From: Octopus vulgaris
Taxonomy: Eukaryota
NCBI GenBank assembly: GCA_951406725.2
Contig: OX597817.1
Coordinates: 75,516,001-75,580,000, forward strand
Direction: 5' to 3'
Length of the DNA: 64,000 nucleotides
Translations under genes and position numbers: made by a program
Notes under the pieces: generated by a model
What the model was told of the DNA's origin: nothing
Databases searched by the model: none
Seen by the model: only the letters and a program-made list of their open reading frames with translations
In this document: positions 529-46,764 of the stretch, in pieces
Layout: each line of letters opens with the position of its first letter
Numbering within the stretch: position 1 is the first letter of the stretch

Positions 529-578
<50 letters not shown>

Positions 579-590
579 TAATAATTATAA

Positions 591-798: not shown

Positions 799-839
799 TA
801 TCCTTACAACAACAACAACAACAACAATAATAATAATAG

Positions 840-1802
840 GCTTGACAAAGAAGAAGTGAGCCTCAGTAAAAGCCAACATAGTAAAAGCTGAAAGAGAAGG
901 ACTGATTCTCGCTGCACAAGACCAATGCCTGACTACGAACAACTATAAAAGCTAAATAATGAAAACAAGCCCTAATACCAATTGCAGAATGTGCAACAAA
1001 CGCAATGACACAGCTGACCACATCATCTCTGGCTGTCCAGTTCATGCCAAATCTGAATATATATATAGACAGGACCGGGTAAATATTTATATCCACTGGA
1101 CAATATGCCAACACTAAAACATAAAGACTGACAATAAATGGTATAAACATGTTTCAAACAACATACAAGACAACGACTAGGCAATAATTGCCTGGGATAT
1201 ACCTTTTCAAACTGACAAAGAAATAAAAGCTAATCGCTCAGACATAATAATCAAGGATTGAAAAAAATTCTACTTACTTGTAGTCCTTTCTGACCAAAAT
1301 TTTGTCCAAAAGGAAGTGGAGAAATTGTCAAAGGACAAAGACCTCGAAATTACAGTATTTAAGATATGGGGCATGAAGGTGAAAACAATACTAGTAATAA
1401 TTGGAGAAATTGTGCATGATAAAATACATATGAACAAAAGAGTAGAAGCTATACCTGGATCCTACACTCTATTGAAAAATAGCCTTGCTAGGAACAGCCC
1501 ACGTCTTACGCAATTCAATAATACAACTTGAACAAAACAATCAACAAAAACAAGACACTCTATACAGCAAATATCCAATGAAATAAACTACCACCAGCAG
1601 ACTATATATCCAACGCATTACACAAGAGAAACACGAATACAACAAAATACTGCACCATACCTCATAAAGGAAGAAACTGACGCAATATAATACCGGGAAG
1701 AGTTTGCACACTCCCAACAACAAAAAAGAATGCAAAGCTTCACACACCCCAGCAACATGGTGATGCAGTAGAAATTTGCCTGAAACTACCAAATGTTGAA
1801 CA
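840..1802 (+). mobile_element. R4/Dong-type non-LTR retrotransposon, degraded 3' end (zinc knuckle, restriction-like endonuclease, 3' UTR)
   Basis: Frame-broken translation gives EGLILAAQDQ, CRMC..DHIISGC, WD..FQTDKEIKANRSDIIIKD. The UTR end matches 46055-46190 and runs into (AAT)n at 1803. Confidence 0.8.
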
Positions 1803-2008
<206 letters not shown>

Positions 2009-2619
2009 TGTAGATAACAAAAGACTGAAACACAAAGGTAATCTTCCTATTGACGAGTTTATATGCTTTGCAAGATGCATAAACATTTCAGAGAAAACCT
2101 ATTTTGCGCGCACACGCGCGCATACACATTGACACAGAAATATACATGCATGCATCTGCTGATGCAGTATATATAGTAATATACTTGTATACTTCATATA
2201 CACAGAGTGATTTATAAATAAGAATGGTACGTGGCACTATGTATATAAGAGTATACACACACACACACACATATATATATTAAAATGTATATAAGAATAA
2301 TAAATAAGAAATTTCTTGGTAAGTGATAATATCTGAAAAAAGACTCGAATTTAAAATACCTAATTATATAAGAAAAATTTTAACCCCACCCCAGATATAC
2401 ACAGACCTGATGGAAAGAAGTTTTGTAAACCGCACTAGCTGTAATATTTTGTTCCAGACAGACAGACAGCCACACACACACACACAAACACAAACACTCT
2501 CACACGCACACACACACAGGTCGTTATATCACTATATTGACAAGACAAACAGCTGTGGTTGTGTATCGCTGGTCGCAGTGCACTTCCTCATATAGGTTTT
2601 CGAATGATGCTATCCTCCT

Positions 2620-2830
2620 GGCTAGACGGGCAAGCCAACATTCCTCTTGGATAGAATAACAGTCCGTGGCAGGTTTACCCTTCAACAGTTGCGTGAAATT
2701 GAGCAAAGTGAAATGAAAGCGCGTTTTGCTCGGGCTGGAATTGAAAACCAGACGCACCACCGGTCCGGGAAGGGAAGCCAATATTTTGCGTTCATGAGTG
2801 AAACATCCTAACCACTAAGCCACGTGTCTA
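2620..2830 (-). mobile_element. tRNA/CORE-type SINE, family B, diverged copy
   Basis: Reverse complement begins CACGTGGCTTAGTGGTTAGG (A box) and resembles 29705-29966. Confidence 0.6.
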
Positions 2831-3384
2831 GTGGTTAGGCTGTCGCGCGCTCATACGCATGAACACACACACATATACACGCGTTGCATGCGCTTGAATA
2901 TGCCTGTAGGCTTTTATAGTATTTGATTATTTGCGAATATGCTTTTACATACTGATTATTTGGTTATCGTGTGACAAAACATTTAATATGATATAACCAA
3001 AAATTTATTACAATCAAGTAAATATTCAAAGTACCTTAATTAAACACCACAAGTCGTTGTTATCATCCACTCAAACATTTTTGCCACTCACGGCCATATT
3101 AATTGTTTACATCAGCTTTGTCTCAGTAGTTTTATGCTAACCACAAAGCAAGGTAAATAATGGAGAAAGGATAAAAGTTAAAACTGGTTACAATATTTTC
3201 AATAACCTTACTTACTGAACATCGTGGCAATATTATATCTATTTTGAGTTAATAGATATGTGTTAAACATGAAAATACATTCATTAACAGATTTAGTTCT
3301 AGTGATTTGAAATATGTTATGGCGGTCCTAAATTACTACATTTCAAAGTAATACCTGAACTGTAGCACTGTCTCAAGTTAGGAC

Positions 3385-3540
3385 TCAAGGGCCGGTTACT
3401 CGGTTTCCATGGCCCAGAACGTCAGTCCGTAGACGGGTTACTCATTTACAGCTGGTTTGACTAGAGTAAAGTGAAACTAAAACCACGATCTTGTGATCAT
3501 GAGTACAACATTCTAACAACTAGGTCACGCCTATTCACAA
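3385..3540 (-). mobile_element. tRNA/CORE-type SINE, family B, diverged and internally deleted copy
   Basis: Similar to 29705-29966 (GGTTTC.ATGGC, GTTACTCATTT, AAACCAC.ATCTT blocks). Confidence 0.55.
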
Positions 3541-4403
3541 CTTAACTGCAGTGTTATTAATTAGTTTTCTACATTCTCATTTGTGTCATTTCACTTATGT
3601 TGTTCATTATATCTTTTTGTCGGATCGAGGCGGTTGATGTCTTTCACTCGCAAAGTTTTCTCCCCATTTCTCAGAATGTGATAAAATCTAAACGGAAGGT
3701 GTAATCTGTAGCAACATAGCACAGCAATATCTAACGTGGAGGTATATCTAAGCGATTGTCCGTTTTAACATCAGTAACTGACATTTAAATGCCCTTAGGA
3801 AGTTACTCTGTTGCATGCATTCAAATAGGTTTTCAGTTCTCGATATCCTCATACACCGCTTCCTACTGCAGCAAGACATGTATTTATTTATCTTCTTATT
3901 TACTTAAGCCCTTTGCTCCAATATTTTCGACTCTATTTTCGGTTTATCTTTTCTGCTTCTCTCCAGTTGAAATCCCTGCTTTTTCAATTCTGGCTCAGTA
4001 TTCCTCCTCATAAGTTTCCCTGGGTGAAAGCTTTCCTCTCCCACGTCTTGTTGCTTTTGAATTGTCATCGATGCCTCAGTAACTTTGCTTATTTTTTTCT
4101 AGGTTGGGGTGTTGGTCCTACGCAAACCCGTTTACATCCTTGGGAAGAACGGGCCATATTGCTTTGACCGCTACCCTTTGACCTGTCAAATAAGTGAGGC
4201 TTTATTAGAAGCTTATGTTCCACTGGCAGAGCTCTCAAGGTCATCGACACACACAAGCCACCAAAGCGCGACTAGGACTAGACCTCCCCTGCACCCCTCC
4301 TGCTCCCCTGCCTCCCCTCCTCCCCTGCCTCCTTCTTCTCCTACCTCCTCTCCTCTTCTCCTGCCCCTCCTCCTTCCATGCTTCCCCTCCTCCTCCCCCG
4401 CCT

Positions 4404-4860
4404 CTATGTCGATAACCATACATGTTCTTTCTTTTTTATTCACCACGACAATGTCCGGTTTCTTATGTCTAGTCAGGTGATTGCATTGGATCAATGCATT
4501 CCACAGGATTTGGCAGTTCTCATTTTCGGTGACTCCTTCAGGAGTTTGTTCATACCATATATTTCCTCTTCGTAGGCTGTGATTTCCACAGAGCTTCCAA
4601 TGGATCATTCTTGCCACATTATTATGGAGTCGTTTGTATTCGAGTTGTGCCAATTTCGAGTATTTGCTAACGATGTGTCATACCGTCTCACTCCTCTCAC
4701 CACACATTCTGCATTTGTCGCCATCGCTAGTGTTGTGAATTCTGCACTTCTTATACTTGGTTTTTAACGCCTGTTCCTGAGCTGCGGATATGAGTGCTTC
4801 TGTCTCTATTTTCAGGTCACTCCTCCTCACCCATAGCCACTAGTCCTCTGTATCTGTCTT
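4404..4860 (-). mobile_element. R4/Dong-type retrotransposon fragment (zinc knuckle and RLE start)
   Basis: Minus strand gives AAQEQAL, CRMC, then ORF 4213..4653 AQLEYKRLHNNVARMIHWKLC..WYEQTPEGVTENENCQILWN..KKPDIVVVNKKERTCMVIDI. Confidence 0.85.
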
Positions 4861-4927
4861 GGCGTTCACATCTCTTGCAAACTGACTGTACATCTCTTTT
4901 TCTTTCCATGCTTTTTCTTTTTTGTTC

Positions 4928-4989
<62 letters not shown>

Positions 4990-5320
4990 GAAACATCACA
5001 GCTTATTTTGCTGGGTATGATGGAAAGTGACAGCCAGCAGACTAAGTGAGTCATAACCCTGCGAAGAATTCTTGCAGTTCCAAGCAATGCTGATTTTTGT
5101 GGGTGTTCTCCCTTCAAACATGCACCAATCTTTTTCAGGCATGTAGGTAGTTGAGTGCATCAATTACTCTTGATATCACGTCTATTCTCTTCATTGACCA
5201 CAACCTTCGTATGTCCTACTTCAGATCGTCATAGTTGTTTATTTCTTCTTTCTACATATTGATCTATTACCACCAAGGCATGCTATGTCGATGAACATAC
5301 ATGTTCTTTCTTTTTTTCAT
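4990..5320 (-). mobile_element. R4/Dong-type retrotransposon 3' terminus abutting (AAT)n
   Basis: Minus strand gives CMFIDIA and QKSALLGTARILRRV, then a short UTR and (AAT)n at 4927-4986. Confidence 0.8.
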
Positions 5321-5352
5321 TGTTTGTTTGTTTGTTTGTTTCTCTTTCTTTT

Positions 5353-5409
<57 letters not shown>

Positions 5410-5426
5410 TTCTTCTTCTTCTTCTT

Positions 5427-5459
<33 letters not shown>

Positions 5460-5571
5460 ATTATTATTAAGGCGGCGAGCTGGCGGAATCGTTTGCACGC
5501 CAGGAGAAATGCTTACTTTCCCCTTACATTGCCACGTGTAGTTTCTATTTTCTTTTTGTAACATATATTTC

Positions 5572-5642
<71 letters not shown>

Positions 5643-5647
<5 letters not shown>

Positions 5648-6042
5648 AAAGTATATTTGCCATCTAAATATGGCTAACCACTAAGGTTAGCTGGCTATTG
5701 GCACACTTTCTGTGCCCTATCGGTATTTGCAAAGGGAGGTCATCCTTCCCTCGTCAACCTAAGTGATACGCACGGACTGCAGTTTCTGGGTATTGACCCG
5801 TCATCAGCGCACGACAATCACCGGTTTTCGATGGAAGGGTCCCAATGCAAATATATATATATCCTTTTTCCAGTGACTTTTCGTCACTGATCTTGAAAAA
5901 GTGTAAACAAGCAATAATAAATCTTGGGGCTACAAGCTACAGTAACATCCACCCTTAATGGTTAGCCATATTTAGATGGCAAATATACTTCCCATTGTCG
6001 TGCAGTTACTGTCAATACCTCGTTTAGAGATTTATTATTGCT
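5643..6042. mobile_element. (TA)n-flanked non-coding element with ~40-bp inverted arms, one-sided tail and a hammerhead motif (Penelope-derived candidate)
   Basis: AAGTATATTTGCCATCTAAATATGGCTAACCA (5649-) is inverted at 5958-5990; (TA)n on both sides; the tail is shared with 58334-58371. Confidence 0.65.
5763..5821 (-). ncRNA. Type I hammerhead ribozyme motif
   Basis: Minus strand reads cgugcg-CUGAUGA-c-gggu/caau/accc-a-GAAA-c-ugca-g-UC-cgugcg. Stem I has 6 bp with two G-U pairs plus an outer gugau/aucac helix; stem III is palindromic; GUC site. Confidence 0.75.
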
Positions 6043-6059
6043 ATATATATATATATATA

Positions 6060-6115
<56 letters not shown>

Positions 6116-6338
6116 AGTAGTTAACAAACTAATAACAAACTACAGATTTTTTTCTGTAGTAGTTTGCTTGGAGACACACGAGGATGGGCAGGGGAGGGTA
6201 ATTGAACCTCATTCATGTTTTGAATTCGGCGGTACTAACACTGAATATTATTTGTCTGATACCGTTAGGTGGAGAGATATGTTCAATTATTCCAGTACCT
6301 TCGAATTTAATATTTCAATATTTAATTATTGATGGGGT

Positions 6339-6421
6339 CCTATGCTGATGAGGAAAACGGTTGGTAAAGTATAATCCTATATTCTTTATTCCAATCTAAT
6401 TCCGAAACGCGCGTCCATAGG
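6339..6421 (+). ncRNA. Type I hammerhead ribozyme motif with long stem II
   Basis: ccuaug-CUGAUGA-ggaa...uucc-GAAA-c-gcgc-g-UC-cauagg: perfect 6-bp stem I, complete core, palindromic stem III. It lies in a ~480-bp unit (6113-6595) flanked by (TA)n. Confidence 0.85.
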
Positions 6422-6593
6422 TGACCAGATATTGATTGATTTTCATTACTTTCCTCTCTGCCTATGTTTTCAAGTATTTTGTTTTTTTCTGGGAGTCCCT
6501 TTTTAAAGTAGAAGAAATAGCTAACGTTTTTTGGCTGATGTTTCTAAACTTCGGTATGTGGTAAAGCAAATCTTTTCTGAACCCTAATTATTA

Positions 6594-6649
<56 letters not shown>

Positions 6650-6654
<5 letters not shown>

Positions 6655-7360
6655 TTTATAAAAAAATACAAAATGGGACAAGAACGCAAAACACTCAAAT
6701 AGACGACGCAAAAAACGGACGGGTCATTCGAAGCCTCTAATCTTCAGTCAAGAACCGGATCATCCTCGCAATTTCGGCTGATTAATCTTGAGATCGCTCC
6801 GATCCGGCCAGCTCCAAGGAAAAACTAAGCTACGAGCATTAGATTTCTTGGAAAAAGGATCGAATGTATACGAAACAAGGATAGAAAAACGGACGATGCC
6901 ACACGAATGTAAATACAAAAAAACAATAATAGTAATAACAGGACAAAAACAGCAGGTGTCTTACGACTTTAGACAGTTCAACTTAGCTTAGCTGGCGTAT
7001 TTGGAAAAAAATGCCGACGAAGAAATCGATGTTGTCGTGGCATGGTCAGAAGCCGAAAGGCTAGTTGACCGGCGGTCACGTGAGAGGAGAAGAGAGAGAA
7101 AAAAAGAGGCAAAGGAAACAAAGAGAGGGAGAAAAAGATTCTGTCGTCAAGCCAATCCTTGGCTTGACGACAGAATCAGTGAGGTGCAAAGTGAGAAAGA
7201 CAGAGAAATGTGAGAGAGTGGGGGAAGAGGAGAACAAAGAATCAGAGGCGAGAAAAGAGAAAGACAGAGACTAGTGAAATATAGAGAAAGTGTGTGTAGA
7301 AGTCGTACAGTAATGGAATGTTTACATACATAAGAGAACAAGATGAACGTTACGCCGCAA
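6650..7360. repeat. (TA)n-adjacent interspersed element with purine-rich body; similar layout to 19371-19930
   Basis: Starts at (TA)n and shares ACGG..GGTCACGTG.GAG followed by a GA-rich tract with 19725-19870. Confidence 0.4.
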
Positions 7361-7414
7361 TAATATATGTATAATATAAGTATATATATATGTATGTGGG
7401 TGTGTATTTATTTA

Positions 7415-7630
7415 TGTGTGTGTGTTTGTGTCTGTGTTTATCCCCCCACCATCGTTGCTTGACAACCGACGTTGGTATGTTTGCGTCCTTGTAACTTAGC
7501 TGTTCAGCAGAAGACTGATAGAATAAGCACCAGGCTTACAGGGAATAAGTTCAGGGGTCAATTTCTTCGACTAAAGGGTGCTGCTCCAGCATGCCCACCG
7601 TCAAATGACTGAAACAAGTAAAATAATAAA
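7415..7630 (+). mobile_element. SINE family C 3' portion
   Basis: GCTTGACAACCGA.GTTGGT.TGTTT..GTCC..GTAACTTAGC block also at 14725-14935 (+) and 60495-60655 (-). Confidence 0.65.
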
Positions 7631-7807
7631 AGAATGCGAGTAAAACTTTTCGTACCAATAAACCAAGAGTGTTGTCTGAATGTGTACGATGTATTTCAAG
7701 GCTAAATAGTAATTCTGTTTAAATTTGCGTAACTGAGATATTTTGGCTGGATTATATATTAATCGGTTTTACACTTCTTTCTATATTCTGTAACTGTCGC
7801 AATATAC

Positions 7808-8146
7808 TTTTCTATTATAGGCACAAGTCCTAAAATTTTATCGACTACAAAAGGATGAAAGGCAAAGACGACCTCGGCGGAATTTGAACTCAGAACGTAG
7901 CGACAGACGAAATACCTATTTCTTTACTACCCACAAGGGGCTAAACACAGAAGGGAAAAGCAAGGACAGACAAACGGATTAAGTCGATTACATCGACCCC
8001 AGTGCGTAACTGGTACTTATTTAATCAGCCCCGAAAGGATGAAAGGCAAAGTCGATCTCGGCGGAATTTGAACTCAGAACGTAGTGGCAGACAAAATACT
8101 GCTAAGCATTTCGCCTGGCGTGCTAACGCTTCTGCCAGCTTGCCGC
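7808..8146 (-). mobile_element. SINE family A, dimeric form
   Basis: Full monomer 7917-8146 plus a headless second unit joined at AAAGAAATA|GGTATTTCG (minus strand). Confidence 0.85.
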
Positions 8147-8423
8147 ATTTTACTGTCACAATATAGAAACATTTCTCATGGTACCAGCACACAATGTACA
8201 GATGCTTACATTTTTATATTTTCCGTGAAATTTTCACGGCTCCAGCTTGTATTCATGAAGATGCTGACAGACTTGTTACTTTGCAATTAATGTCAGATCG
8301 TTACTGTGATTATTATGTCTACATTCTTTCATGTCTTTAATAAGTAAACGTTTAAAATCGTTATACCGAGTGGATATTTCAGATATTTCAAAGTAGTTTT
8401 TAATCTGTGGTTTGGTATATTTG

Positions 8424-8550
8424 TATGTATGTATGTATGTATGTATGTATGTATGTATGTATGTATGTATGTATGTATGTATGTATGTATGTATAGATGG
8501 ATGTATGTATGTATGTATGTATGTATGTATGCATGCACGCATGTATGTAT
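8424..8550. repeat. (ATGT)n microsatellite
   Basis: Directly visible. Confidence 0.95.
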
Positions 8551-8644
8551 ATATAGATGCATTTATACTTACGTACTTACATGTGCACACAAGCACATAT
8601 ATACAGAATGGGATATAAGTCACGAAGTTTTAATCAAAAATATT

Positions 8645-9059
8645 TATTTCTTTATTGCCGACAGGGGCTAAACATAGAGGGGACATACAAGGACAGAGAA
8701 AGGGATTAAGCCGATTACATCTACTCCAATGCGTAACCGGTACTTATTCAATTGACCCCGAAAGGATGAAAGGCAAAGTCGACCTCGGCGGAATTTGATC
8801 TCAGAACGTAACGGCAGCCGAAATACCTATTTCTTTACTACCCACAAGGGGCTAAACACAGAGAGGACAAACAAGGACAGACAAACGGATTAAGTCGATT
8901 AAATCGACTCCAATGCGTAACCGGTACTTATTTAATCGACCCTGAAAGGATGAAAGGCAAAGTCGACCTCGGTGGAATTTGATCTCAGAACGTAACAGCA
9001 GCCGAAATACCGCTAAGTATTTCGCCCGTAGTGCTAACGATTCTGCCTGCTCGCCGCCC
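8645..9059 (-). mobile_element. SINE family A, dimeric form
   Basis: Two tandem units with the same junction as 7808-8146; head GGCGGCGAGC at 9049-9058. Confidence 0.88.
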
Positions 9060-9142
9060 TTTAATAAAAGATATTATCTACACTTGGCACGTTTCTAAAT
9101 ATACATACGTACTGAATTCTCCTCATGACTTTTGACCCACCC

Positions 9143-9237
<95 letters not shown>

Positions 9238-9384
9238 CGTGTGTGCGTGTGTGCGCGCGTGTATGTGTGCGTTTGTATGTACGTGCGTTCGTGCGCGCAC
9301 ACGTGTATGTGTGTGATAGGAATAGAATTTTACTTAGGTGTTATAATCATAATTTTCAATGAAAATTACAGCCAATAATATATT

Positions 9385-9580
9385 TTAATTTCAGCACTAG
9401 GCTAGCAATTTTAAGCGGGGGGGTGTTAGCCGATACTACCGACCTGCATTTCACTTTACTCCGAAACGATGGAAAGCAAAGTTGACCTCGGCGATTTTGA
9501 ACCGAGAGCATAAAGAGCCGCAAGAAATGCCGCGCGGCTTTTTCCTCGATGCTGTAATGGTTTTGCCAACTCTCTGCTTC
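9385..9580 (-). mobile_element. SINE family A, old diverged copy
   Basis: GCAAAGTTGACCTCGGCGATTTTGAAC core resembles other family A copies. Confidence 0.6.
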
Positions 9581-10356
9581 TTAAAATGAATAAATTTTAT
9601 TACGTGTCCTACAATTTTCTTCTCTAGATTTTATGTCACCTCGAAGTAAGTAATTTATTATGTATCGTACTTATCCACGGAATTTTCTTTTTAAAGTTTT
9701 ATTGCTTTCACGTCTATATACTTCCAAGAAGAAATCCTTCGTTATTGTAATTCATAATAAATGGGAAATGTTCAAATTTTCCACATAGCATTCTCGGCAG
9801 ACTTTTTAAAATAGCAACAATGGCATTAAAAAGTGATTGCAATGTAAAATCATCGAGACCATTGTTTTCAATGGTTTTTCAAAATTGGTAACTAAAGCTA
9901 TCAAAAATTATTTTGAAAATCCAATTTTTCATATCGTAATAATGGAGAAACAATGAGATCGTGACATTAATACATTTTTCTGAAGTGAAACTGTTTGTAA
10001 TCATGACATATATTGCCGAGAGCTTCTACTCCATGTCTTCTGGCCAATATCGTATTAAATTGATTTTATACGGTGACAAAGGCTATTGAAACGAAGCCAG
10101 TATAATACTGACACATTAGAAGTTATTTTATTGGTGTTAGATGGCCGTTTCCTAACACAGAACTTCGAAGAACAATACTAAAGATAATAATGTCAGGGTT
10201 TGGTATTGTAATTCCTGCCCCAATCCAAATTTGAACAACCATATCTTTGTGTAATTTATTATGTAGTGATATATATATAATTAAAGTCTTACTGGTCATA
10301 TTACAAGTGTCTTGGGCATAAACACACACACGCACACGCACACATTTTTATAAGTA

Positions 10357-10583
10357 GTGGCACGTGGCTTGGTGAGTTGCAATCATAATCATGAGATTCT
10401 GGTTTCGATTACTGGCATTAATGATGCGTTGTGTTCTTGAGCAAAACACTTCATTTCCCGTTGCTCCGGTCCACCCAGCTGGCAATAAAGAGTAATCATG
10501 TAATAAACTGGTATTCTGTCCAGGAAGAAATATATACGCCTCAGAATCTGGGAAAACGGCATTCCGACCCGTAGGCTCAGAAG

Positions 10584-10590
<7 letters not shown>
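10357..10590 (+). mobile_element. tRNA/CORE-type SINE, family B
   Basis: GTGGCTTGGTG A-box-like and GGTTTCGATT B-box-like motifs, then TTGTGTTCTTGAGCAAAACACTT (CORE-like). Confidence 0.65.
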
Positions 10591-10621
<31 letters not shown>

Positions 10622-10647
10622 CATAAGCAACAAGAATGAATCCGGTA

Positions 10648-10737
10648 ATTTAGTACAATTGTTTCATACTACAACATTTTATTAAAAGCTGTAATTATTA
10701 CAGCAGATTTAAGATGCCGAGTAATCTTCAGCTAATT
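10648..10737 (-). ncRNA. Type I hammerhead ribozyme motif (left arm)
   Basis: Minus strand reads uuag-CUGAAGA-u-uacu...agua-u-GAAA-c-aauu-g-UA-cuaa, with a palindromic stem III. Confidence 0.65.
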
Positions 10738-10807
10738 TTATATAGGTTTTCCAATAATATAAAGTTTATATTATTGGAAACTTTATATTATTGGAAAACC
10801 TATATAA

Positions 10808-10898
10808 AATTAGCTGAAGATTACTCGGCATCTTAAATCTGCTGTAATATTTACAGCTTTTAATAAAATGTTGTAGTATGAAATAATTGTACTAAATT
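10808..10898 (+). ncRNA. Type I hammerhead ribozyme motif (right arm; C15.2 to U variant)
   Basis: uuag-CUGAAGA-uuacu...aguau-GAAA-u-aauu-g-UA-cuaa. Confidence 0.6.
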
Positions 10899-11026
10899 AC
10901 CGGATTCATTCTTGTTGCTTATTTTTTTTTATAATCACCCCGCATATTTTTATGGATAACACCATAAAACATTCTGGTGCATCTAAATTAAGTGCCATAT
11001 GCATTTGAATCTAAATTGTTGCTGAA

Positions 11027-11062
<36 letters not shown>

Positions 11063-11243
11063 TGAATAATCTTGTTGCAGATTAATCAAAAGTTTAACCG
11101 ATACCTTGGTAGCAAAAATCACAGCAGAAGAAAGCACGGTTGGAGATAAAACCTTTTGGTGTTGCAACCGTACGTTGGTGCGGATAATTGAATTTTAATA
11201 TTATTAGTGAATTGAAAAAATGGACTTGAACGAAGATTGAATA

Positions 11244-11355
11244 GAATTCCTTTTATTGCATTCAACACATGTTTCAAAAGCCACAATTTTCCAAATTCTG
11301 ATTAAATAAGGATACCATATTGTGGCTTTCTCTTCAGGAAAAAAATAGGAATTCC
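11244..11355 (-). ncRNA. Type I hammerhead ribozyme motif (left arm, GUU site)
   Basis: Minus strand reads uuc-CUGAAGA-gaaagccacaau...auuguggcuuuu-GAAA-c-augu-g-UU-gaa, with an outer gaauucc/ggaauuc helix. Confidence 0.7.
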
Positions 11356-11502
11356 GTTGGCAGAACAAAACAGAACAGAGGCGCAGCAAAGCAATTTGAA
11401 CGAGGCGGCTCTTTAAGAGCCCATGGCTGAACCATGGGCTCTTAAAGAGCCGCCTCGTTCAAATTGCTTTGCTGCGCCTCTGTTCTGTTTTGTTCTGCCA
11501 AC

Positions 11503-11614
11503 GGAATTCGTATTTTTTTCCTGAAGAGAAAGCCACAATATGGTATCCTTATTTAATCAGAATTTGGAAAATTGTGGCTTTTGAAACATGTGTAGAATGC
11601 AATAAAAGGAATTC
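11503..11614 (+). ncRNA. Type I hammerhead ribozyme motif (right arm, GUA site)
   Basis: uuc-CUGAAGA (11521-11527), 12-bp stem II, GAAA (11583-11586), c-augu-g-UA-gaa. Confidence 0.75.
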
Positions 11615-11652
11615 TGTTCAATCTTCGTTCAACTCCATTTTTTCAATTCACT

Positions 11653-11729
<77 letters not shown>

Positions 11730-11783
11730 TATATATTATATATATTATATATATTATATATATTATATATTATATATATATAT

Positions 11784-13164
11784 TCAAAGTGTTTGAAAGA
11801 GTGTTAAGATCAAGGATAGCTGACTTCCTGGAGACCCACAAACTCCTAAATGCAAATCAGCATGGCTTTCGCTGTGGCAGGGACTGTCTAACACAGCTCT
11901 TACTCCACATTGAAGATGTACTCAAAGCCTTGGGAACAGGTTCGAACTCTGATGTCATATATTTTGACTTCAGTAAAGCGTTCGACAGGGTAGACCATAA
12001 TATCCTACTCTCAAAATTGGCAAATGTTGGAATCCGCGGAAAAGTTCTACACTGGATCAAGTATTTCCTGGCGAATAGAACACAACATGTTGTAGTTGAT
12101 GGAGTCCACTCAAGCCCAGCAAAAGTCACCAGCGGTGTCCCCCAGGGGACTGTCTTGGGTCTGCTACTCTTCATAATCTACATAAACGACCTTTCCAGTG
12201 TCGTACATTACTGTAAAGTGAAAATATTTGCTGATGACACTAAGCTCCAGCAAATCGTCAATGAAGAAGCAGACCGAACTCAACTCCAGTCTGATCTATA
12301 TGCTGTGAGTCAATGGGCAGACAGAAACAAAATGCAACTGAACGATGGAAAATTTGAGCTGATGCATTTTGGAAGAAATTCCTTACTAAAACAGCCATAC
12401 TCTCTTCCTTCAGGGGAACCGCTCACAGCCTCTAACAATATCAGAGACCTGGGTGTAATTATTGATGACGATCTCAGTTGGAGTGCACACATCAACAAGA
12501 AGGTCGATATAGCTCGAAGGATGAGTTCCTGTATCTTAAGAACTTTCCGGTTCAGAGAACAAGGTGTCATCATACCACTTTTCTCTTTTGTACGGCCACA
12601 CCTCGAATACTGCTGCCCACTGTGGTCTCCCCATACAAGACAAAACATCTCGAGGATTGAATCACCCCAGAGAGCACTCACTAAACGAATTGAAGGCATG
12701 GCTCTACTCTCTCCAGCATCGCCGTGAGCGGTACATCATTTGTACGATGTGGAGAATATACCGCCAACTTTGCCCAAACGACCTGAACATTAGCTTCAAG
12801 GTTCATCCAAGACTGGGACCACGGGCCATACGTCCCCTGCCCAATTCATGATCACAGCATACATGTACACTACAACATAATTTCTTTTCCTCAACAGGCC
12901 CTGCCCTATTTAACATTGTCCCGAAAGAGATCAAAGAGGAACAGGATCCCATCAACTTTAAACGGAGTCTGGATAGATTCCTTCAAGAAATACCAGATAA
13001 GCCACCCATAATTGGATACAACTCACCCAACAAAAACTCACTACTTGAATGGACCATAAACAAAACTTGACTTAAATAGGATTCAAATAATCCTATCAAG
13101 TGGTGTTATTAAGTTAGACATGGCCTGGACCAATCATTGGTCGAAACATATCTAAGTTTATCTA

Positions 13165-13170
<6 letters not shown>
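11784..13170 (+). mobile_element. CR1-group LINE, 5'-truncated, inserted in (TA)n
   Basis: RT coding region, frameshifted C-terminus, 3' UTR with a GACCAA/TTGGTC hairpin and tandem TCTAAGTTTA x2 at the terminus. Confidence 0.85.
11789..12727 (+). pseudogene. Non-LTR reverse transcriptase domain (CR1-like), N-terminally truncated and frameshifted
   Basis: Motifs QHGFR, YFDFSKAFDRVDH, SGVPQGTVLG, FADDTK, RDLGV, RPHLEYC..LWSP. Confidence 0.9.
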
Positions 13171-13720
<550 letters not shown>

Positions 13721-13731
13721 ATATATCTCTC

Positions 13732-14109
13732 TCTATATAAACGGCAGTTTGTCTGTGCGTGTTTCTGTGTGTCTGTTTTCTCGTACCCTCACCCTGACCA
13801 CGGCTTTCAACCGATTCTGATGAAACTTGACACACACATAGCCCAATGTCATAATTCAAAACTAACGCAACGAAAATTTTGAAAAGTTCCCCCAGTTCTG
13901 AAAAAAATCGATAAATTCGACATGGGGTCGAGAATCAGAAACACAGACCACAAACTGTGTAGGGGACGCAACTCAACCTTTTTTAACTCTCAAAAAAAAT
14001 TTACCATCATTTTTTTCCATTTTCTTGCTATTTTTTGGCTATAACTCTCTAAAAATGCTTTATAGTTATTTCCCTTACAAACCTGAGCAACGCCGGGCGA
14101 TACTGCTAG
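13732..14109 (+). mobile_element. Non-autonomous Helitron
   Basis: 5' TC-TATATA start, 3' GC-rich hairpin CCTGAGCAACGCCGGG followed by CTAG|T; a related copy lies at 53234-53980 on the minus strand. Confidence 0.75.
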
Positions 14110-14171
14110 TATATGTATATATATATATGTATATATATATGTATATATATATATATGTATATATATATATC

Positions 14172-14215
<44 letters not shown>

Positions 14216-14223
14216 TACATACA

Positions 14224-14264
<41 letters not shown>

Positions 14265-14280
14265 GAAATATTAAAATTAC

Positions 14281-14310
<30 letters not shown>

Positions 14311-14311
<1 letters not shown>

Positions 14312-14650
14312 GGCGCATGGCTCAGTGGTTAGAGCGTCGAGCTTACGATTGTGAGTTTGTGAGTTCGAAAACCGGACCGGACTGCGTGTTGTGTTCTCGA
14401 GCAAGACACTTTATTTCACATTGCTCCAGTTCACTCAGGTGTAGAAATGAGTTGCGACATCACAGGTGCCAAGCTGTATCGGCCCCTTTGCCTTTCCCTT
14501 GGATAACACTGGTGGCGTGGAGAGGGGATGCCGGTATGCATGGGCGGCTGCTGGTCTTCCGTAAAAACAACCTTGCCCGGACTAGTGCCTGGGAGGGTAA
14601 CTCTCTAGGTGAAATCCTATGGTCAGTCATGACCGAAGGGGGTCCCAGCA
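14311..14650 (+). mobile_element. tRNA/CORE-type SINE, family B, well preserved
   Basis: TGGCTCAGTGG A box, GAGTTCGAAACC B box, TTGTGTTCTCGAGCAAGACACTT CORE-like block; body shared with 29265-29660 and 30231-30648. Confidence 0.85.
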
Positions 14651-14677
14651 TATATATATAAGTGTATGTTAGCGCAC

Positions 14678-14724
<47 letters not shown>

Positions 14725-14728
<4 letters not shown>

Positions 14729-14935
14729 TGTCTGAGTTTGTCCTCTCATTGTTTCTGATAACCAGTGTAGGTTTGTTCACGTTCCCGTAACGTTGTGACT
14801 CAGCAAAAAAAAAAGGAAAAAGAAAAAAACGGTAGGATAAATGCCAGATGTCAAACAAGTACTGGGTCGACTTGGACTAAACTTTTCAAGGCAATGCCCT
14901 TGCATGGCCATAGTCCAATGGCTCAAACAATAAAA
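14725..14935 (+). mobile_element. SINE family C 3' portion, diverged
   Basis: Similar to 7415-7630. Confidence 0.55.
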
Positions 14936-15224
14936 CAAGAAACGGCAGAGTGGTTTCTAAATATTATTTACGTTTAACTATTGTCTTGACAGAAAAGGTG
15001 AAGTGTCAGACTGCGTGGTATCTGGTTATGTCCCTTTATTTTCTGAGTCAAAATCTAGTTTAGGTCGACTTATCAATAATCCTTTCAAGATATGTAGTTA
15101 AAATAAGCGCCAGTTCATAAAATTAGGAGATGGAATATGAAACAGACTATATTTTTAGGAAGGCAATTTTTTTTATGTGGCATAGCCAAAGTCCATTGAC
15201 TGAGGCCAGTAAAATAATTATAAT

Positions 15225-15389
15225 GATTTCAAATTTTGGTACAATGTCAGCAATTTTAGGGGAGGGATAAGTCGTTTACACCGACCCGAGTACTTATTTT
15301 ATAGACCCCCGAAAACAGGAAAAGTAAAGTCGTCCTCGTTGGCATTTAAACTCAAGACATAAAGCCAGAATATATACCTCTCGCCGCCT

Positions 15390-15390
<1 letters not shown>
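15225..15390 (-). mobile_element. SINE family A, diverged copy
   Basis: TCAAATTTTGG.ACAA tail and AAAGTCGTCCTCG core as in 591-798. Confidence 0.6.
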
Positions 15391-15469
<79 letters not shown>

Positions 15470-15529
15470 TGTAGTTAAAATAAGCGCCAGTTCATAAAAT
15501 TAGGAGATGGAATATGAAACAGACTCCAC

Positions 15530-16176
15530 GTGCAGCTTTCTTGTGCTCACAGAGTATCCCCTTTGGAATTTTACTGTTCAAACTGACAGAAAGATAGATG
15601 CAAATAGGCCAGACACTATATTGAAGGATTTCAGACAAAAGTCGTGCCTCTTCATCAATATGACTGTCTCAATCGACAAAAACGTATCTGTCAAGACCTA
15701 CCAAAAACTGAGCAAGTATAAATAGAAATTGGTAAATGTGGAACCACAAAACTAGAACTATACCTGTTGTCATAGGTACCTTAGAAATGATAGCAAAAGT
15801 GGCTGATTGTTTACCTATCTCAGATACCAGGAAATCCCCAAAATTTAACTGACCCAGTAGCGAAGACTGCAGAATACATCCAACTCAAAAACATCTTAAA
15901 ATTACAATTCGCAAAAAAGTTTGCTACTTTCTCGAAGCTTTCGTACGTACGTACGTACATACATACATACATACATACATACATACATACATACATACAT
16001 ACATACATACATACATACATACTGTCTTTACGTTCTGTATTCAAATGCCAGCCGGGGTAAACTTTGCCTTTCAACCTTTCAGGGCCGATAAATTAAGTAC
16101 CAGTGAAACACTGGGTCGATGTAATCGATTAGTCTCCTCCCACCAAATCTGAGGCCTTGTGCCTCCAGTAGAAATG

Positions 16177-16229
<53 letters not shown>

Positions 16230-16267
16230 CATTATTATTATTATCATCATCATCATCATCATCATCA

Positions 16268-16310
<43 letters not shown>

Positions 16311-16327
16311 CATTATTATTATTATTA

Positions 16328-16377
<50 letters not shown>

Positions 16378-16780
16378 TTATTCATTCGTAACACAGTGTA
16401 GGTAAAAATGCACCGGAGTCTTTAGAAGAAATTTTAAAAATAGGGGTCATGGGAACTGCTCATATCCTACAAAAAATACTGTCTATGTGATTCCAAAAAC
16501 ATTTTAATCTATAATCATTATCAAAAGTACTATTAAATGTACATAACAGCAAACACCTTTTACTGTCATTGTAAGATCACACTATCACCTTATCATCAAA
16601 TGATTTTAAAGTAAACTTTTAATTTTCTTATGTTTTGACAGAAATTCTCTAGAAAATACACTGTGCAAAACCAAAAGTATGTCACCATTATCATAATACT
16701 GATTTGAACTTCTAACTTCTCGCTTCAGGTCTTTGGGTGAGACTTGGAATCAACTTGTACAAATACAAAGCAAAACCCAA

Positions 16781-16785
<5 letters not shown>
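15530..16785 (+). mobile_element. R4/Dong-type retrotransposon 3' end, interrupted by a 588-bp inverted duplication (15838-16425)
   Basis: LWNFTVQTDRKIDANRPDTILKD..FINMTVSID..KLSKYK; resumes at 16426 with MGTAHILQKILSM* and a UTR matching 45780-45966; ends in (TAA)n. Confidence 0.85.
15838..16425. repeat. Near-identical inverted duplicate of 17668-18290
   Basis: Unique sequence, SINE fragment and even the (ATT)/(ATC) interruption pattern are mirrored; the (TACA)n length and about 1 base differ. Confidence 0.92.
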
Positions 16786-16849
<64 letters not shown>

Positions 16850-16873
16850 GATGATGATGATGATGATGATGAT

Positions 16874-17432
16874 AAATGCCCTGATGCAGTACCAGACAGT
16901 GGCTCTCTTGGCTTCTGATCTTAACTGATTGGAAATGTAATCATGTACATTGTTTTATCTTGGTATAAAAGATGGGCTACAGCAAATATTTTGCTCAATG
17001 ACACAGATTTGCTTGTCAGTTGTTTAACCTTAACCAGTTGACCATGTCCCTTACTGGTTGACGATATGTGCATCTCTGACCACGAGCAAAAGTAGTGGGG
17101 GGAGTATGATAGCCGTGTGTTGAAAGGAATTCTTGGAGGTTTAGATAATTCACCTTTGGAAACATGGGTGGTTCGTTCAACATCCTTAAACAACCCTTCT
17201 TCAGAGACCTTTTCAGCGTGATGGGCTACTCGACCAGAAGAAAAATCTAACTGCGCTACACCTGCAAGGTCATATACTGTTTGTCTTGATATGAGACCAC
17301 CATGTCGCGCACATATGGTTGTGATGCATGTGCCTAGTGTATCCTTATCAGACGGATAGTCATGACGGGTATACTGAGCTTCGTATATTTTACCCCAGTG
17401 TCACTTTGATGGCATGCACTGCTCTCTCACTC
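16874..17432. mobile_element. ~560-bp non-coding interspersed element embedded in (AAT)n, copy 1
   Basis: Colinear with 21696-22245, with the same right end CTCTCTCACTC|AATAAT. Confidence 0.8.
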
Positions 17433-17499
<67 letters not shown>

Positions 17500-17514
17500 G
17501 TAATGATAATAATA

Positions 17515-17715
17515 TGACTCAATTCCACTGAAACTTCAAGACTTCTTAAGGCAACTGGAAATCCCATGCAAGATTGATGTCTTGCAAAAAGCAGCCTTAT
17601 TGGGCATAGTGCGCATCTTAAGAAAAGTATTATCTGTCTGAAATCCTTGTCGTGACTTGACAGATGACTAAAGACTCCGGTGCATTTTTACCTACACTGT
17701 GTTACGAATGAATAA
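17515..17715 (+). mobile_element. R4/Dong-type retrotransposon extreme 3' end
   Basis: LQKAALLGIVRILRKVLSV*, then a short UTR and (AAT)n. Confidence 0.75.
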
Positions 17716-17765
<50 letters not shown>

Positions 17766-17782
17766 TAATAATAATAATAATG

Positions 17783-17825
<43 letters not shown>

Positions 17826-17863
17826 TGATGATGATGATGATGATGATGATAATAATAATAATG

Positions 17864-17922
<59 letters not shown>

Positions 17923-18299
17923 CATTTTCTACCGGAGGCACAAGGCCTCAGATTTGGTGGGAGGAGACTAATCGATTACATCGACCCAGTGTTTCACTGG
18001 TACTTAATTTATCGGCCCTGAAAGGTTGAAAGGCAAAGTTTACCCCGGCTGGCATTTGAATACAGAACGTAAAGACAGTATGTATGTATGTATGTATGTA
18101 TGTATGTATGTATGTATGTATGTATGTATGTATGTATGTATGTATGTATGTATGTATGTATGTATGTATGTACGTACGTACGTACGAAAGCTTCGAGAAA
18201 GTAGCAAACTTTTTTGCGAATTGTAATTTTAAGATGTTTTTGAGTTGGATGTATTCTGCAGTCTTCGCTACTGGGTCAGTTAAATTTTGGAGACACGCT

Positions 18300-18915
18300 C
18301 GAATTTAGCGAAGGCGGGAGCAGTGGTTTGTTTACATTATTATTTACGCCGCTCCTGGCAGATTTTGGCTCATTTTCAGTGTTTTGGAAGGATCGAGAAC
18401 CAGTTGATTTTTTTTTTTTCACAAAAGATGTTTGTTGTCAGAGCTGTTCTGCCGTGAAGGTATTTATGTTGGGATGAGCTTCGTCCCAGTATTATTTTAA
18501 CCACTTCATGTATCCGATTGAAGAGTCATCTCGGGCTTTTTCATAGCATCGAAGTAAATCTTGGTTTAGTTGCAGAGTCCAAGTAAAATGAGAAGAGTAC
18601 TTACGTCTTCTTAAATAACTTACTGAAGTAGTTCTGTTTTCATCGGTGGTAATGTTATTAGTTTCATCTGTGGTGATATTAGTTTCAGCCATAATCGTGT
18701 TAGCGAGATTCCACGTGGTGTAGATGTATATTTTAAAATCTGTTCAGGATAACACTACGTTGGTGAGTAAAAGGTGTTTCTCTTATTAATTATTGCAGAA
18801 ATAAATCAGTTACCGATTTAAACTGGAGAAGTCGGCATATTTCTAGAAGAAGTCGTTCAAAACGGACTTTATAAACGGTCCTCTACACCTGCACGTCCAA
18901 TGTTGACGGCGCCAT
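18300..18915 (-). mobile_element. Probable 5' region of an R4/Dong-type element
   Basis: ORF 18492..18692 FTWTLQLNQDLLRCY..GYMKWLK resembles the R4 ORF N-terminal W..N..CY..Y motif; compare KWSVDMN at ~43115. Confidence 0.5.
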
Positions 18916-18918
18916 ATT

Positions 18919-19033
18919 ATGTATGTATGTATGTATGTATGTATGTATGTATGTATGTATGTATGTATGTATGTATGTATGTATGCATGTATGTATGTAT
19001 GTATGTATGTATGTTTGTATGTATGTATGTATG

Positions 19034-19064
<31 letters not shown>

Positions 19065-19318
19065 GTATGTATGTATGTATGTATGCATGCATGTATGTAT
19101 GTATGTATGTATGTATGTATTATGTATGTATGTATGTATGTATGTATGTATGTTTGTATGTATGTATGTATGCATGTATGTATGTATGTATGCATGCATG
19201 CATGCATGTATGTATGTAAGTGTGTATGTATGTATGCATATATATATAATATAAATAATATATATATATATATATATATAGGCTTATATACATTCATATA
19301 TGTACATACTGACATATA

Positions 19319-19370
<52 letters not shown>
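18919..19370. repeat. (ATGT)n and (TA)n microsatellite block
   Basis: Directly visible. Confidence 0.95.
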
Positions 19371-19373
<3 letters not shown>

Positions 19374-19930
19374 GAACTTTTTTGCGAACAGCGAGAGAAA
19401 CAAATAGAAAACACGAGAAGTAACATACAGAGCGACCCTTCATCAGTTGTCGACTGTGTATTTACTTCACATTTCGAGCAATTCACGACAATATGCGCCT
19501 TCGAGAAAACAGTTGCTCCCGCAAGCCAAAATAAAATTTGAGATTTTGCGGAGGGTCAAAGTTGGTAACAGAAACAGGACAGTGAAACAAATAGAGAGGA
19601 CTGCTAAGCGAGACGGGGTAAGGTGGCGAACGCTGAGGAACATTCTTTGACAGGATAAAAGATAGGAGAGGAGACAGACAACAGACCGGAAGAAAAGAAA
19701 GATCAACACGTGTGGAAAAACAGATGGACGATGGTCACGTGTGAGCAACGAGAGAGTAAAGAAGGAGGAAGGAAAGAGAGAGAGAGAGGGACAGATAGAA
19801 AACGATGAAGGGGAGAAAAATAGAGAATTAGAGAAAGGAAGAGAGAAAGAGAGAGAGAACAGTACAGAGGAGAGTCGCATAAAAATTATTAAGATAAACT
19901 TACTTGGAAATGGATGCGTGGCGTTTAATG
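19371..19930. repeat. (TA)n-flanked interspersed element related to 33260-33800
   Basis: Shares CCTT.ATCAGTTGTCG..CATTTCGAGCA..CGACAATAT and GAGGGTCA.AGTTGG blocks with 33400-33530. Confidence 0.6.
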
Positions 19931-19995
19931 ATATAATAATATAGATAAAAATATATATAGGCATATATACATACACATATGTACATAGTGACATA

Positions 19996-20042
<47 letters not shown>

Positions 20043-31802: not shown

Positions 31803-31917
<115 letters not shown>

Positions 31918-46696: not shown

Positions 46697-46756
<60 letters not shown>

Positions 46757-46764
46757 TAATAATA

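What the first reader, a model, noticed from the sequence alone, without database searches (positions are those of the whole stretch)
10623..11660. Two adjacent fold-backs each carrying back-to-back hammerheads on opposite strands
Seen: 10623-10922 and 11198-11660 are near-perfect hairpins of unrelated sequence, each with one hammerhead per arm pointing outward. In both, the unpaired tail lies downstream of one ribozyme. Inference: a transcript from either strand first reads an antisense copy and then a sense ribozyme, so the long duplex could mask cleavage (a self-silenced ribozyme, which would make intronic insertion tolerable) while leaving a 145-229-bp dsRNA. Inverted pLTR copies are known for Penelope elements, but this compact dual-ribozyme hairpin is unusual.
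Basis: partly seen in the sequence, partly recalled or inferred. Interest (0 to 1): 0.75.

Follow-up and report, generated by a model that had tools for sequence, protein, structure and literature searches.

The report
Head-to-head Penelope stubs carrying hammerheads
The two hairpins and their four hammerhead-ribozyme motifs are really there, but each hairpin is an ordinary, shortened, head-to-head insertion of a common Penelope-type jumping gene, and the predicted zipping-up of the ribozyme is likely a side effect of how these elements insert rather than a selected off-switch.

Summary
Observation confirmed: two 98% fold-backs (148 and 229 bp), each arm with an outward-pointing minimal type I hammerhead motif, and a one-sided tail. 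They are independent insertions of two abundant repeat families (over 1,000 candidate places each) that trace to RT plus C-terminal GIY-YIG ORFs with Hydra-clade Penelope motifs. They landed tail-to-tail in one (TA)n tract. The layout (inverted 5'-truncated pLTR copy, one tail, hammerheads on opposite strands) is in print (PMC4209133, PMC8557442), and this scan has reported it many times on other DNA of this genome. Masking by the duplex is predicted by folding, but nothing ties the fold-back to the ribozyme. In 56 other copies picked by the tail alone, 38 are folded back; only 11 of these carry two full ribozymes and 10 carry none. Arms differ from each other as much as unrelated copies do, single arms are not predicted to fold actively either, and no host exon was found. 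Likely mechanism: two cDNAs primed on both target strands from uncut promoter-started RNA, joined head to head. The only departure from print is a long tail (about 100 and 140-155 nt versus 30-40).

The parts
10590..10621 (.). (TA)n target microsatellite, left flank
   Evidence: sequence
10623..10767 (-). Family 1 short-ended arm (inverted 5'-truncated pLTR copy; ends about 9 nt before the family's usual short end)
10650..10735 (-). Hammerhead motif 1a, type I, palindromic ACAATTGT helix III/loop 3, predicted cut after GUA at 10654; matches the family majority at core positions
10766..10778 (+). Junction of hairpin 1 with a 12-nt templated duplication of arm sequence (template-slip scar, inferred)
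10778..10931 (+). Family 1 tail-bearing arm
10810..10895 (+). Hammerhead motif 1b; predicted cut after GUA at 10891; carries a private C-to-T at 10884 (position 15.2; T in 1 of 59 arms)
10932..11029 (+). Family 1 tail, about 100 nt (99-101 in 29 of 29 tail-picked copies)
11030..11059 (.). (TA)15 spacer between the two tail ends
   Evidence: sequence
11060..11197 (-). Family 2 tail, 138 nt here (family ends cluster near 140 and 155 nt); in the full-length unit it is the sequence between the pLTR and the ORF start
11198..11431 (-). Family 2 tail-bearing arm; its 5' end lies 1 nt inside a recurrent family 5' end at TC|AGTT (likely transcription start, inferred)
11261..11340 (-). Hammerhead motif 2a; cut-site nucleotide privately changed A-to-T (GUU; T in 1 of 79 arms)
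11432..11660 (+). Family 2 short-ended arm, starting at the CCATGG palindrome
11518..11597 (+). Hammerhead motif 2b, type I, 12-bp helix II, self-complementary ACATGTGT helix III/loop 3, predicted cut after GUA at 11594
11661..11782 (.). (TA)n and degenerate AT tract, right flank; followed by an unrelated RVT_1 fragment

Best explanation
Each hairpin is a separate 5'-truncated insertion of a Hydra-clade Penelope-like retrotransposon, made of two head-to-head copies of the element's terminal repeat that likely arose as a by-product of integration and are likely decaying without function. Shown: family identity, link to RT/GIY-YIG ORFs, two fixed 3' ends (short end and tail end), variable 5' ends, (TA)n targets. 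Inferred mechanism (about 0.6 on its own): the element protein nicks both strands of a (TA)n tract and primes two cDNAs at two fixed internal start sites on uncut RNA of one source, mostly a short RNA that begins at the promoter inside the pLTR; both cDNAs stop at or before the RNA 5' end and their free ends are joined by microhomology, most easily at short palindromes, which yields symmetric hairpins like these two. Each arm carries a hammerhead only because the motif lies 40-145 nt upstream of the short end. A read-through transcript is predicted to zip into a long duplex that blocks the motif, but this is an automatic consequence. The two insertions are neighbours because both families target the same microsatellite.
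For: High-copy families: 1130/1339 and 3154/1352 candidates (7, 37). Full family 2 unit at L061: 715-nt pLTR, tail, RT and GIY-YIG frames, second pLTR 99.4% identical. Family 1 arm lies downstream of RT/EN frames in L067 (97-98% to the window arm) and L090 (94%). Hydra-clade motifs. Tail-picked sample, own copy removed: inverted partner in 22 of 28 and 16 of 28; of 38 pairs both arms hold a full ribozyme in 11, one in 17, neither in 10; tail arm longer in 13, partner longer in 13, within 10 nt in 12. Arm-to-arm distance equals between-locus distance (2.1 vs 2.2%; 3.6 vs 3.8%), and 10 variants are seen only in the two arms of one insertion among 48 pairs, one of them in window hairpin 2. 5' ends pile up at TC|AGTT (6 of 58, p=8e-5; family 1 at TT|AGTT 3 of 37, p=0.008) and not at the ribozyme cut (1 of 58; 2 of 37); 49 of 58 and 27 of 37 arms span the cut. 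In vitro, a Penelope protein cuts and extends both strands, starts at two internal RNA sites that define the tail, and uses uncut RNA (PMC11167929).
Against: Symmetric pairs are in excess of independent truncation (8 of 22, p=0.00015; 4 of 16, p=0.058), both window pairs are symmetric, and hairpin 1 has a templated junction insert, which fits snap-back synthesis as well. In 24 of 42 sampled insertions with a full ribozyme the opposite arm does cover its cut site, so masking would be common. Core positions show fewer variants than their surroundings (0.7 vs 1.1%; 0.9 vs 2.2%; sample picked by similarity, not tested statistically). Samples are the best 30 of over 1,000 candidates, so they favour young copies. 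The tails are 3-4 times longer than the published 30-40 bp. The pile-up positions were chosen after looking at the data.
Confidence: 0.85

Rival explanations
1. Self-silenced ribozyme: the fold-back is kept by selection because the duplex blocks cleavage of a host pre-mRNA.
For: Masking is predicted on both strands (114-120 kcal/mol); 24 of 42 ribozyme-bearing insertions have the cut site covered by the other arm. A preprint reports that tandem-ribozyme retrozymes are excluded from introns in vertebrates, so active ribozymes in genes can be costly (10.64898/2026.07.22.740005, passages).
Against: Fold-back rate is not higher with a ribozyme (21 of 35 vs 17 of 21, Fisher p=0.14, trend opposite); 10 of 38 fold-backs hold no full ribozyme; 18 of 42 ribozyme-bearing insertions are not masked; arms diverge like unrelated copies. 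Single arms are not predicted to form helices I and III. A single minimal PLE hammerhead showed no cleavage (PMC4209133) and another needed the element protein (PMC11167929), so there may be little to silence. Two of the four window motifs carry private changes at 15.2 or 17.
Confidence: 0.07
2. Same identity, other mechanism: one cDNA snaps back on itself (self-priming at a palindrome) and copies its own strand, the endonuclease then resolving the intermediate to leave a one-sided tail.
For: Excess of symmetric pairs at short palindromes; both window pairs symmetric; 12-nt templated insert at the tip of hairpin 1; variants private to both arms. Self-priming was proposed in PMC3846280 and endonuclease resolution of the tail in PMC8557442.
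Against: The short-ended arm reaches further 5' than the tail arm in 13 of 38 pairs, which a copy of the tail arm cannot do; both end types also occur alone; two antisense cDNAs can also pair only at palindromes, so symmetry does not single out snap-back. Both routes may operate.
Confidence: 0.3
3. A small non-autonomous fold-back unit (MITE- or retrozyme-like) that spreads as a dual-ribozyme hairpin, or both hairpins as one composite unit.
For: Most copies are short; a few fold-back centres recur (around CCATGG and a GTAC palindrome). One other locus (L124) holds both families.
Against: Arm lengths range from 12 nt to over 1 kb and run into the ORF; recurring centres sit on palindromes; L124 has other arm lengths and about 680 nt between the tails; co-occurrence is 1 of 57 loci.
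Confidence: 0.03
4. Assembly or chimeric-read artefact.
For: No listed contig of four DNA runs bridges either hairpin centre or spans the locus (contigs of a high-copy repeat cannot settle this).
Against: Arms differ at 3 and 4 positions, end at the family's two fixed sites, and the same asymmetric layout recurs at 38 other loci with other centres.
Confidence: 0.02

Closest known systems
Hydra clade of C-terminal EN+ Penelope-like elements (Craig et al. 2021, PMC8557442), especially Penelope-13_HM and Hydra-1_Obim
   Same: RW[K/R/L], DKT, divergent RT4, YRDD, C-terminal GIY-YIG without CCHH, CxxC and CxH around the conserved E and N, (TA)n targets, sense hammerhead near the 3' end. Penelope-13_HM is listed with a 5'-truncated inverted copy and a hammerhead on each strand; many listed Hydra hammerheads have the same CTGAnGAT...TGAA flanks as family 1 and several have U at the cut site.
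   Different: Neither family matches the Hydra-1_Obim hammerhead row by eye; helix II/loop 2 is much longer here (55-59 nt between core boxes); units are longer (3.67 kb repeat in L061; 1091-residue frame in a relative, L096) than the <3 kb given; family 2 copies read lack the CxCx5C linker; tails are about 100 and 140-155 nt, not 30-40.
Minimal hammerheads of metazoan PLEs (Cervera and De la Pena 2014, PMC4209133)
   Same: Type I motif, short helix I, long helix II, palindromic helix III/loop 3; dual motifs 100-700 bp apart on opposite strands attributed to truncated PLEs.
   Different: That paper's text (parts 1-2 read) does not discuss masking by the opposite arm; G10.1-C11.1 is absent here (U.U in family 1, G.U in family 2).
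Inverted pLTR plus tail insertions of Adineta vaga Penelope (Arkhipova et al. 2013, PMC3846280) and PAc/Poseidon biochemistry (Frangieh et al. 2024, PMC11167929)
   Same: Head-to-head pLTRs, palindromes at the junction, one-sided tail, Inr-like motif in the pLTR, Asn-rich ORF inserts; two internal RT starts, both strands primed, uncut RNA as template.
   Different: Other PLE clade; much longer distance between the two 3' ends; here most copies are short stubs.

Membership tests
EN+ Penelope-like element | RT plus GIY-YIG endonuclease ORF joined to the repeat | tested here: met
   RT (PMGS, YRDD) and GIY-YIG-type frames upstream of both arms. Pfam is weak: GIY-YIG E=0.0019, below cut-off, for family 1; no RVT_1 hit; 0 PDB hits. 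Assignment rests on motifs and by-eye match to published rows.
EN+ Penelope-like element | Partial tandem forming direct pLTRs | tested here: met
   L061 2533-3250 and 6203-6920, 99.4%; family 1 relative L091 has arm copies at both ends, 85% to the window arm.
EN+ Penelope-like element | Adjacent inverted 5'-truncated copy | tested here: met
   38 of 56 other tail-picked copies.
EN+ Penelope-like element | One-sided 30-40 bp tail | tested here: inconclusive
   One-sided fixed tail present (37 of 38 pairs have it on one arm only; L118 on both), but about 100 and 140-155 nt long.
Hydra clade | RWK motif and DKG changed to DKT | tested here: met
   RWL and DKT in L061; DKT in family 1 relatives L089, L091, L092; RWR and DKT in L096/L097.
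Hydra clade | CxCx5C linker before the endonuclease | tested here: inconclusive
   Met for family 1 (CNCRIRSNC in L090); not found in family 2 copies L061, L062, L064.
Hydra clade | No CCHH in the endonuclease; CxxC and CxH flanking conserved E and N | tested here: met
   CNLCVSE...CPH (family 2), CQLCSME...CIH (family 1); a single Cys between the GIY and YIG boxes.
Hydra clade | (TA)n insertion bias and sense hammerhead near the 3' end | tested here: met
   Downstream flanks printed are (TA)n-type in nearly all arms; hammerhead is on the ORF strand.
Hydra clade | Placement in the Hydra clade on an RT tree | not tested
   Published sequences were only read in the supplement and compared by eye; no tree was built.
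Type I hammerhead ribozyme (minimal PLE type) | Core C3-U4-G5-A6-N7-G8-A9, G12-A13-A14, A15.1-U16.1, H17; helices I and II | tested here: met
   All four motifs; core letters near-invariant in 45-80 arms per family.
Type I hammerhead ribozyme (minimal PLE type) | Self-cleavage, as monomer or dimer | not testable with these tools
   Folding only: active monomer fold 4-9 kcal/mol above the minimum; no excess of cDNA ends at the cut site.
MITE or retrozyme-like autonomous hairpin unit | Copies of uniform length and shared ends | tested here: not met
   Arm lengths 12 to over 1000 nt, independent between arms in most pairs.

The most novel reading that the evidence does not exclude
Because these elements insert head to head, they seed the genome with thousands of 30-250-bp perfect RNA duplexes that mask their own ribozymes; selection would then let masked copies, but not exposed ones, persist on the sense strand of introns, and the duplexes would feed RNA editing or small-RNA silencing of the families. 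Separately, the long tails and the 5'-end pile-up would map, from genome sequence alone, a short promoter-started uncut RNA with two reverse-transcription starts 100-155 nt apart.
Probability: 0.1. Interest if true: 0.55.

Novelty: new member of a known kind. Interest (0 to 1): 0.17.

Why it matters
Little as it stands: these are stubs of two abundant Hydra-clade Penelope families in a layout already described. The useful by-products are (1) copy statistics that bear on the unsettled Penelope integration mechanism (both arm-length polarities, symmetric joins at palindromes, shared private variants, uncut template, likely promoter-defined 5' ends) and (2) tails several times longer than the 30-40 bp in print. 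If masked copies proved enriched on the sense strand of introns, it would be in vivo evidence that minimal PLE hammerheads do cut RNA, which is an open question.

Tried and rejected
Rfam scan: no hammerhead family among the 150 of 173 matches shown; only sub-threshold miRNA models on hairpins and microsatellites. Pfam and PDB give almost no signal for these divergent proteins. Host gene: 103 stop-free frames listed; 123 chosen frames (120 from the 140 best of 162 complexity-ranked candidates, plus 3) gave only transposon-type or sub-threshold Pfam hits; contigs of four possibly-RNA runs laid on 1-20000 showed only repeat-type joints among the 15 of 27 listed. So an intron is neither shown nor excluded. 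No RNA holder is on record. One T>C at 10825 in one contig cannot be told from a family variant. DNA contigs do not bridge the hairpin centres, uninformative. Rejected: that tail arms are bounded by the promoter while short-ended arms are long (over 260 nt: 5 of 32 vs 6 of 37). Rejected: templates being the ribozyme's 3' product. Rejected by inspection: an in-cis heterodimer of the two same-strand ribozymes, since their helix I strands (TTAG/CTAA and TTC/GAA) do not cross-pair. Rejected: composite unit. Literature searches for masking, twin priming in Penelope, or cephalopod hairpins (listings only) showed no paper devoted to them; the library lacks most subscription journals.

Full report
1. 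Observation. Both fold-backs are real in the assembly: 10620-10767/10778-10925 (148 nt) and 11198-11426/11432-11660 (229 nt), 98% complementary, with 3 and 4 arm differences and no similarity to each other. A type I hammerhead descriptor finds one motif per arm, pointing outward: 10814-10891 (+), 10731-10654 (-), 11521-11594 (+), 11337-11264 (-); 7 cores in the window against 0.03 per shuffled window (100 shuffles; descriptor written after seeing the motifs). Helix III is two pairs closed by a self-complementary loop (ACAATTGT; ACATGTGT), the dimer-type architecture described in PMC4209133 (parts 1-2 of 4 read). Rfam did not list them.

2. What they are. The window lies in a 2.8-Gb genome; earlier scan notes call it an octopus, which I did not test. 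Each arm belongs to a high-copy family (1130 and 3154 candidates with arm queries, 1339 and 1352 with tail queries; only the best 40 scored per call). In other copies each family has two fixed 3' ends running into (TA)n: a short end and an end extended by a tail of about 100 nt (family 1) or about 140 and 155 nt (family 2). The insertion units in the window are therefore 10623-11029 and 11060-11660, lying tail to tail across (TA)15 inside one microsatellite tract. L061 holds a whole family 2 unit: 715-nt pLTR, tail, three overlapping frames with RT and GIY-YIG motifs (this copy is frameshifted), and a second pLTR 99.4% identical that stops at the short end. The tail is thus the sequence between pLTR and ORF. 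Family 1 arms lie downstream of RT and endonuclease frames in L067 and L090. RT stretches of family 2 and of a family 1 relative (L089, 85% to the window arm) are 45% identical over 322 residues. Motifs RW[RL], DKT, PMGS, YRDD, CxCx5C (family 1 only), GIY-YIG without CCHH, CxxC..E and CxH are the diagnostic set of the Hydra clade in PMC8557442 (section 11 read; passages), and the RT blocks match its Hydra alignment rows by eye, not the Neptune rows (supplement search). Pfam and PDB give little; no tree was built.

3. The layout is in print. PMC8557442 describes an adjacent inverted 5'-truncated copy and a 30-40 bp tail on one end, and its supplement (part 2 of 59 read) lists the Hydra-clade Penelope-13_HM with an inverted copy and a hammerhead on each strand. 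PMC4209133 states that dual minimal hammerheads were found 100-700 bp apart on opposite strands. PMC3846280 (passages) describes head-to-head pLTRs with palindromic junctions and a tail. The scan's own notes list 870 fitting entries in this genome, of which 8 were shown, all reaching a similar verdict; they are unchecked and not independent support.

4. Is the fold-back there to silence the ribozyme? Masking is predicted: forcing the hammerhead fold costs 114-120 kcal/mol in the whole hairpins on both strands, and folding of growing prefixes pairs the second arm as it appears (equilibrium folding, not kinetics). But isolated arms are also 4-9 kcal/mol from the active fold, with helix I and III probabilities of 0.04 or less; a single minimal PLE hammerhead showed no cleavage and the Anolis one needed protein (PMC11167929, parts 1-2 of 4 read). 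I then took copies picked by the tail alone (30 loci per family; dropped L119, the other end of L118, and L133, which gave no central match to the reference; then the window's own copy). An inverted partner was joined in 22 of 28 and 16 of 28. Of the 38 pairs, 11 have a full ribozyme in both arms, 17 in one, 10 in neither. Pairing was 21 of 35 when the tail arm held a full ribozyme and 17 of 21 when it did not (Fisher p=0.14). Of 42 insertions with a full ribozyme, 24 have the cut site covered by the other arm and 18 do not. Arm-to-arm distance equals the distance between arms of different loci (2.1 vs 2.2%; 3.6 vs 3.8%; all DNA-search loci used, picked for similarity to the window copy). Two of the four window motifs carry private changes at positions 15.2 and 17 (1 of 59 and 1 of 79 arms), although U at 17 is common in published Hydra hammerheads. 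Against my reading: core positions vary somewhat less than their surroundings (0.7 vs 1.1%; 0.9 vs 2.2%), and masking would apply to over half of ribozyme-bearing insertions. No host exon was found, so the intron premise is open, and the genome-wide orientation test could not be run.

5. How the hairpins likely form. Shown: either arm can reach further 5' (tail arm 13, partner 13 of 38 pairs); symmetric pairs are in excess (8 of 22, p=0.00015; 4 of 16, p=0.058) and several sit on short palindromes, as hairpin 2 does on CCATGG; 10 variants are private to both arms of one insertion among 48 pairs, one in hairpin 2; most arms span the ribozyme cut site and 5' ends do not pile up there (1 of 58; 2 of 37) but do at TC|AGTT, 235 nt upstream of the short end (6 of 58), and at TT|AGTT in family 1 (3 of 37) (positions chosen after inspection; that TCAGTT is an initiator-type motif is recalled). 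The tail arm of hairpin 2 starts 1 nt inside that site. Inferred: two cDNAs are primed on the two nicked strands of a (TA)n target at two fixed internal starts of uncut RNA from one source, as the in-vitro behaviour in PMC11167929 allows, and are joined by microhomology. Snap-back self-priming remains a serious rival for symmetric cases; hairpin 1 has a 12-nt templated duplication at its tip. Shared private variants could also come from later conversion between arms. I was led to look for promoter-defined ends and uncut templates by earlier scan notes and tested them as above.

6. Adjacency and artefact. The window holds 49 tracts of (TA)8 or longer and 9 fold-backs of 70 nt or more; 8 of 57 sampled loci have an unrelated fold-back within about 1.5 kb and 1 of 57 holds both families, with other arm lengths. 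Adjacent hairpins are thus common and not one unit. Contigs of four DNA runs show the families at high depth but do not bridge the centres; fixed asymmetric ends and arm differences argue against an artefact.

7. Verdict. New members of a known kind: two Hydra-clade families not matching the one octopus Hydra hammerhead row in the published table by eye, in a published layout. The tail length (about 100 and 140-155 nt) departs from the 30-40 bp in the papers read; six searches (listings only) showed no paper on longer tails or on masking, but most subscription journals, Repbase and the preprint's supplements (10.64898/2026.07.22.740005, passages only) were not visible. Interest 0.17.

Noticed in passing
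window 5775-5807 (-), 6345-6415 (+), 24463-24524 (+): Three more type I hammerhead motifs of other sequence, two with canonical CTGATGA...GAAAC...GTC and 6-bp helix I; the one near 5790 lies between the arms of an imperfect inverted repeat (about 5652-5705 and 5939-5992).
   Followed up: no
window 13169-13641, 31910-32095, 33814-33916, 46664-47163, 57852-58079, 58073-58329, 60176-60345: Seven further fold-backs. 13240-13545 and 58075-58330 look like the same paired-arm layout next to AT tracts; the one at about 13395 has a GATGA...GAAG remnant at its tip.
   Followed up: partly
L096 2100-5372 and L097 (G000:C9 and C11): Relatives of family 1 have uninterrupted frames of about 1090 residues with long Asn-rich linkers between RT and endonuclease, like the Asn-rich inserts described for Adineta Penelope; many frames of 900 residues or more were listed, so related families are young.
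   Followed up: partly
L061 2285-2491: A fold-back of a family 1 relative (78%) sits directly next to the full-length family 2 unit across (TA)n: a second case of different Hydra-type families sharing a microsatellite.
   Followed up: no
L118/L119 (G000:C28:20417993-20418559): An inverted pair in which both arms carry the tail, the only one among 38.
   Followed up: no
L068 2811-4726 (G000:C2:149.04 Mb): A symmetric family 2 fold-back with arms of about 890 nt reaching into the end of the ORF.
   Followed up: no
window 11783-12727 (+): Non-LTR retrotransposon RT fragment (RVT_1, E=1e-25) abutting the AT tract right of hairpin 2.
   Followed up: partly
window 37864-39669 (-): 601-residue stop-free frame that looks like a hAT/SCAND3-type transposase (label recalled; no Pfam hit at E 0.01).
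   Followed up: no
window about 15800-16420 and 17670-18300: Near-duplicate inverted blocks with (AAT)n and (ATGT)n tracts, seen as twin ORF translations.
   Followed up: no
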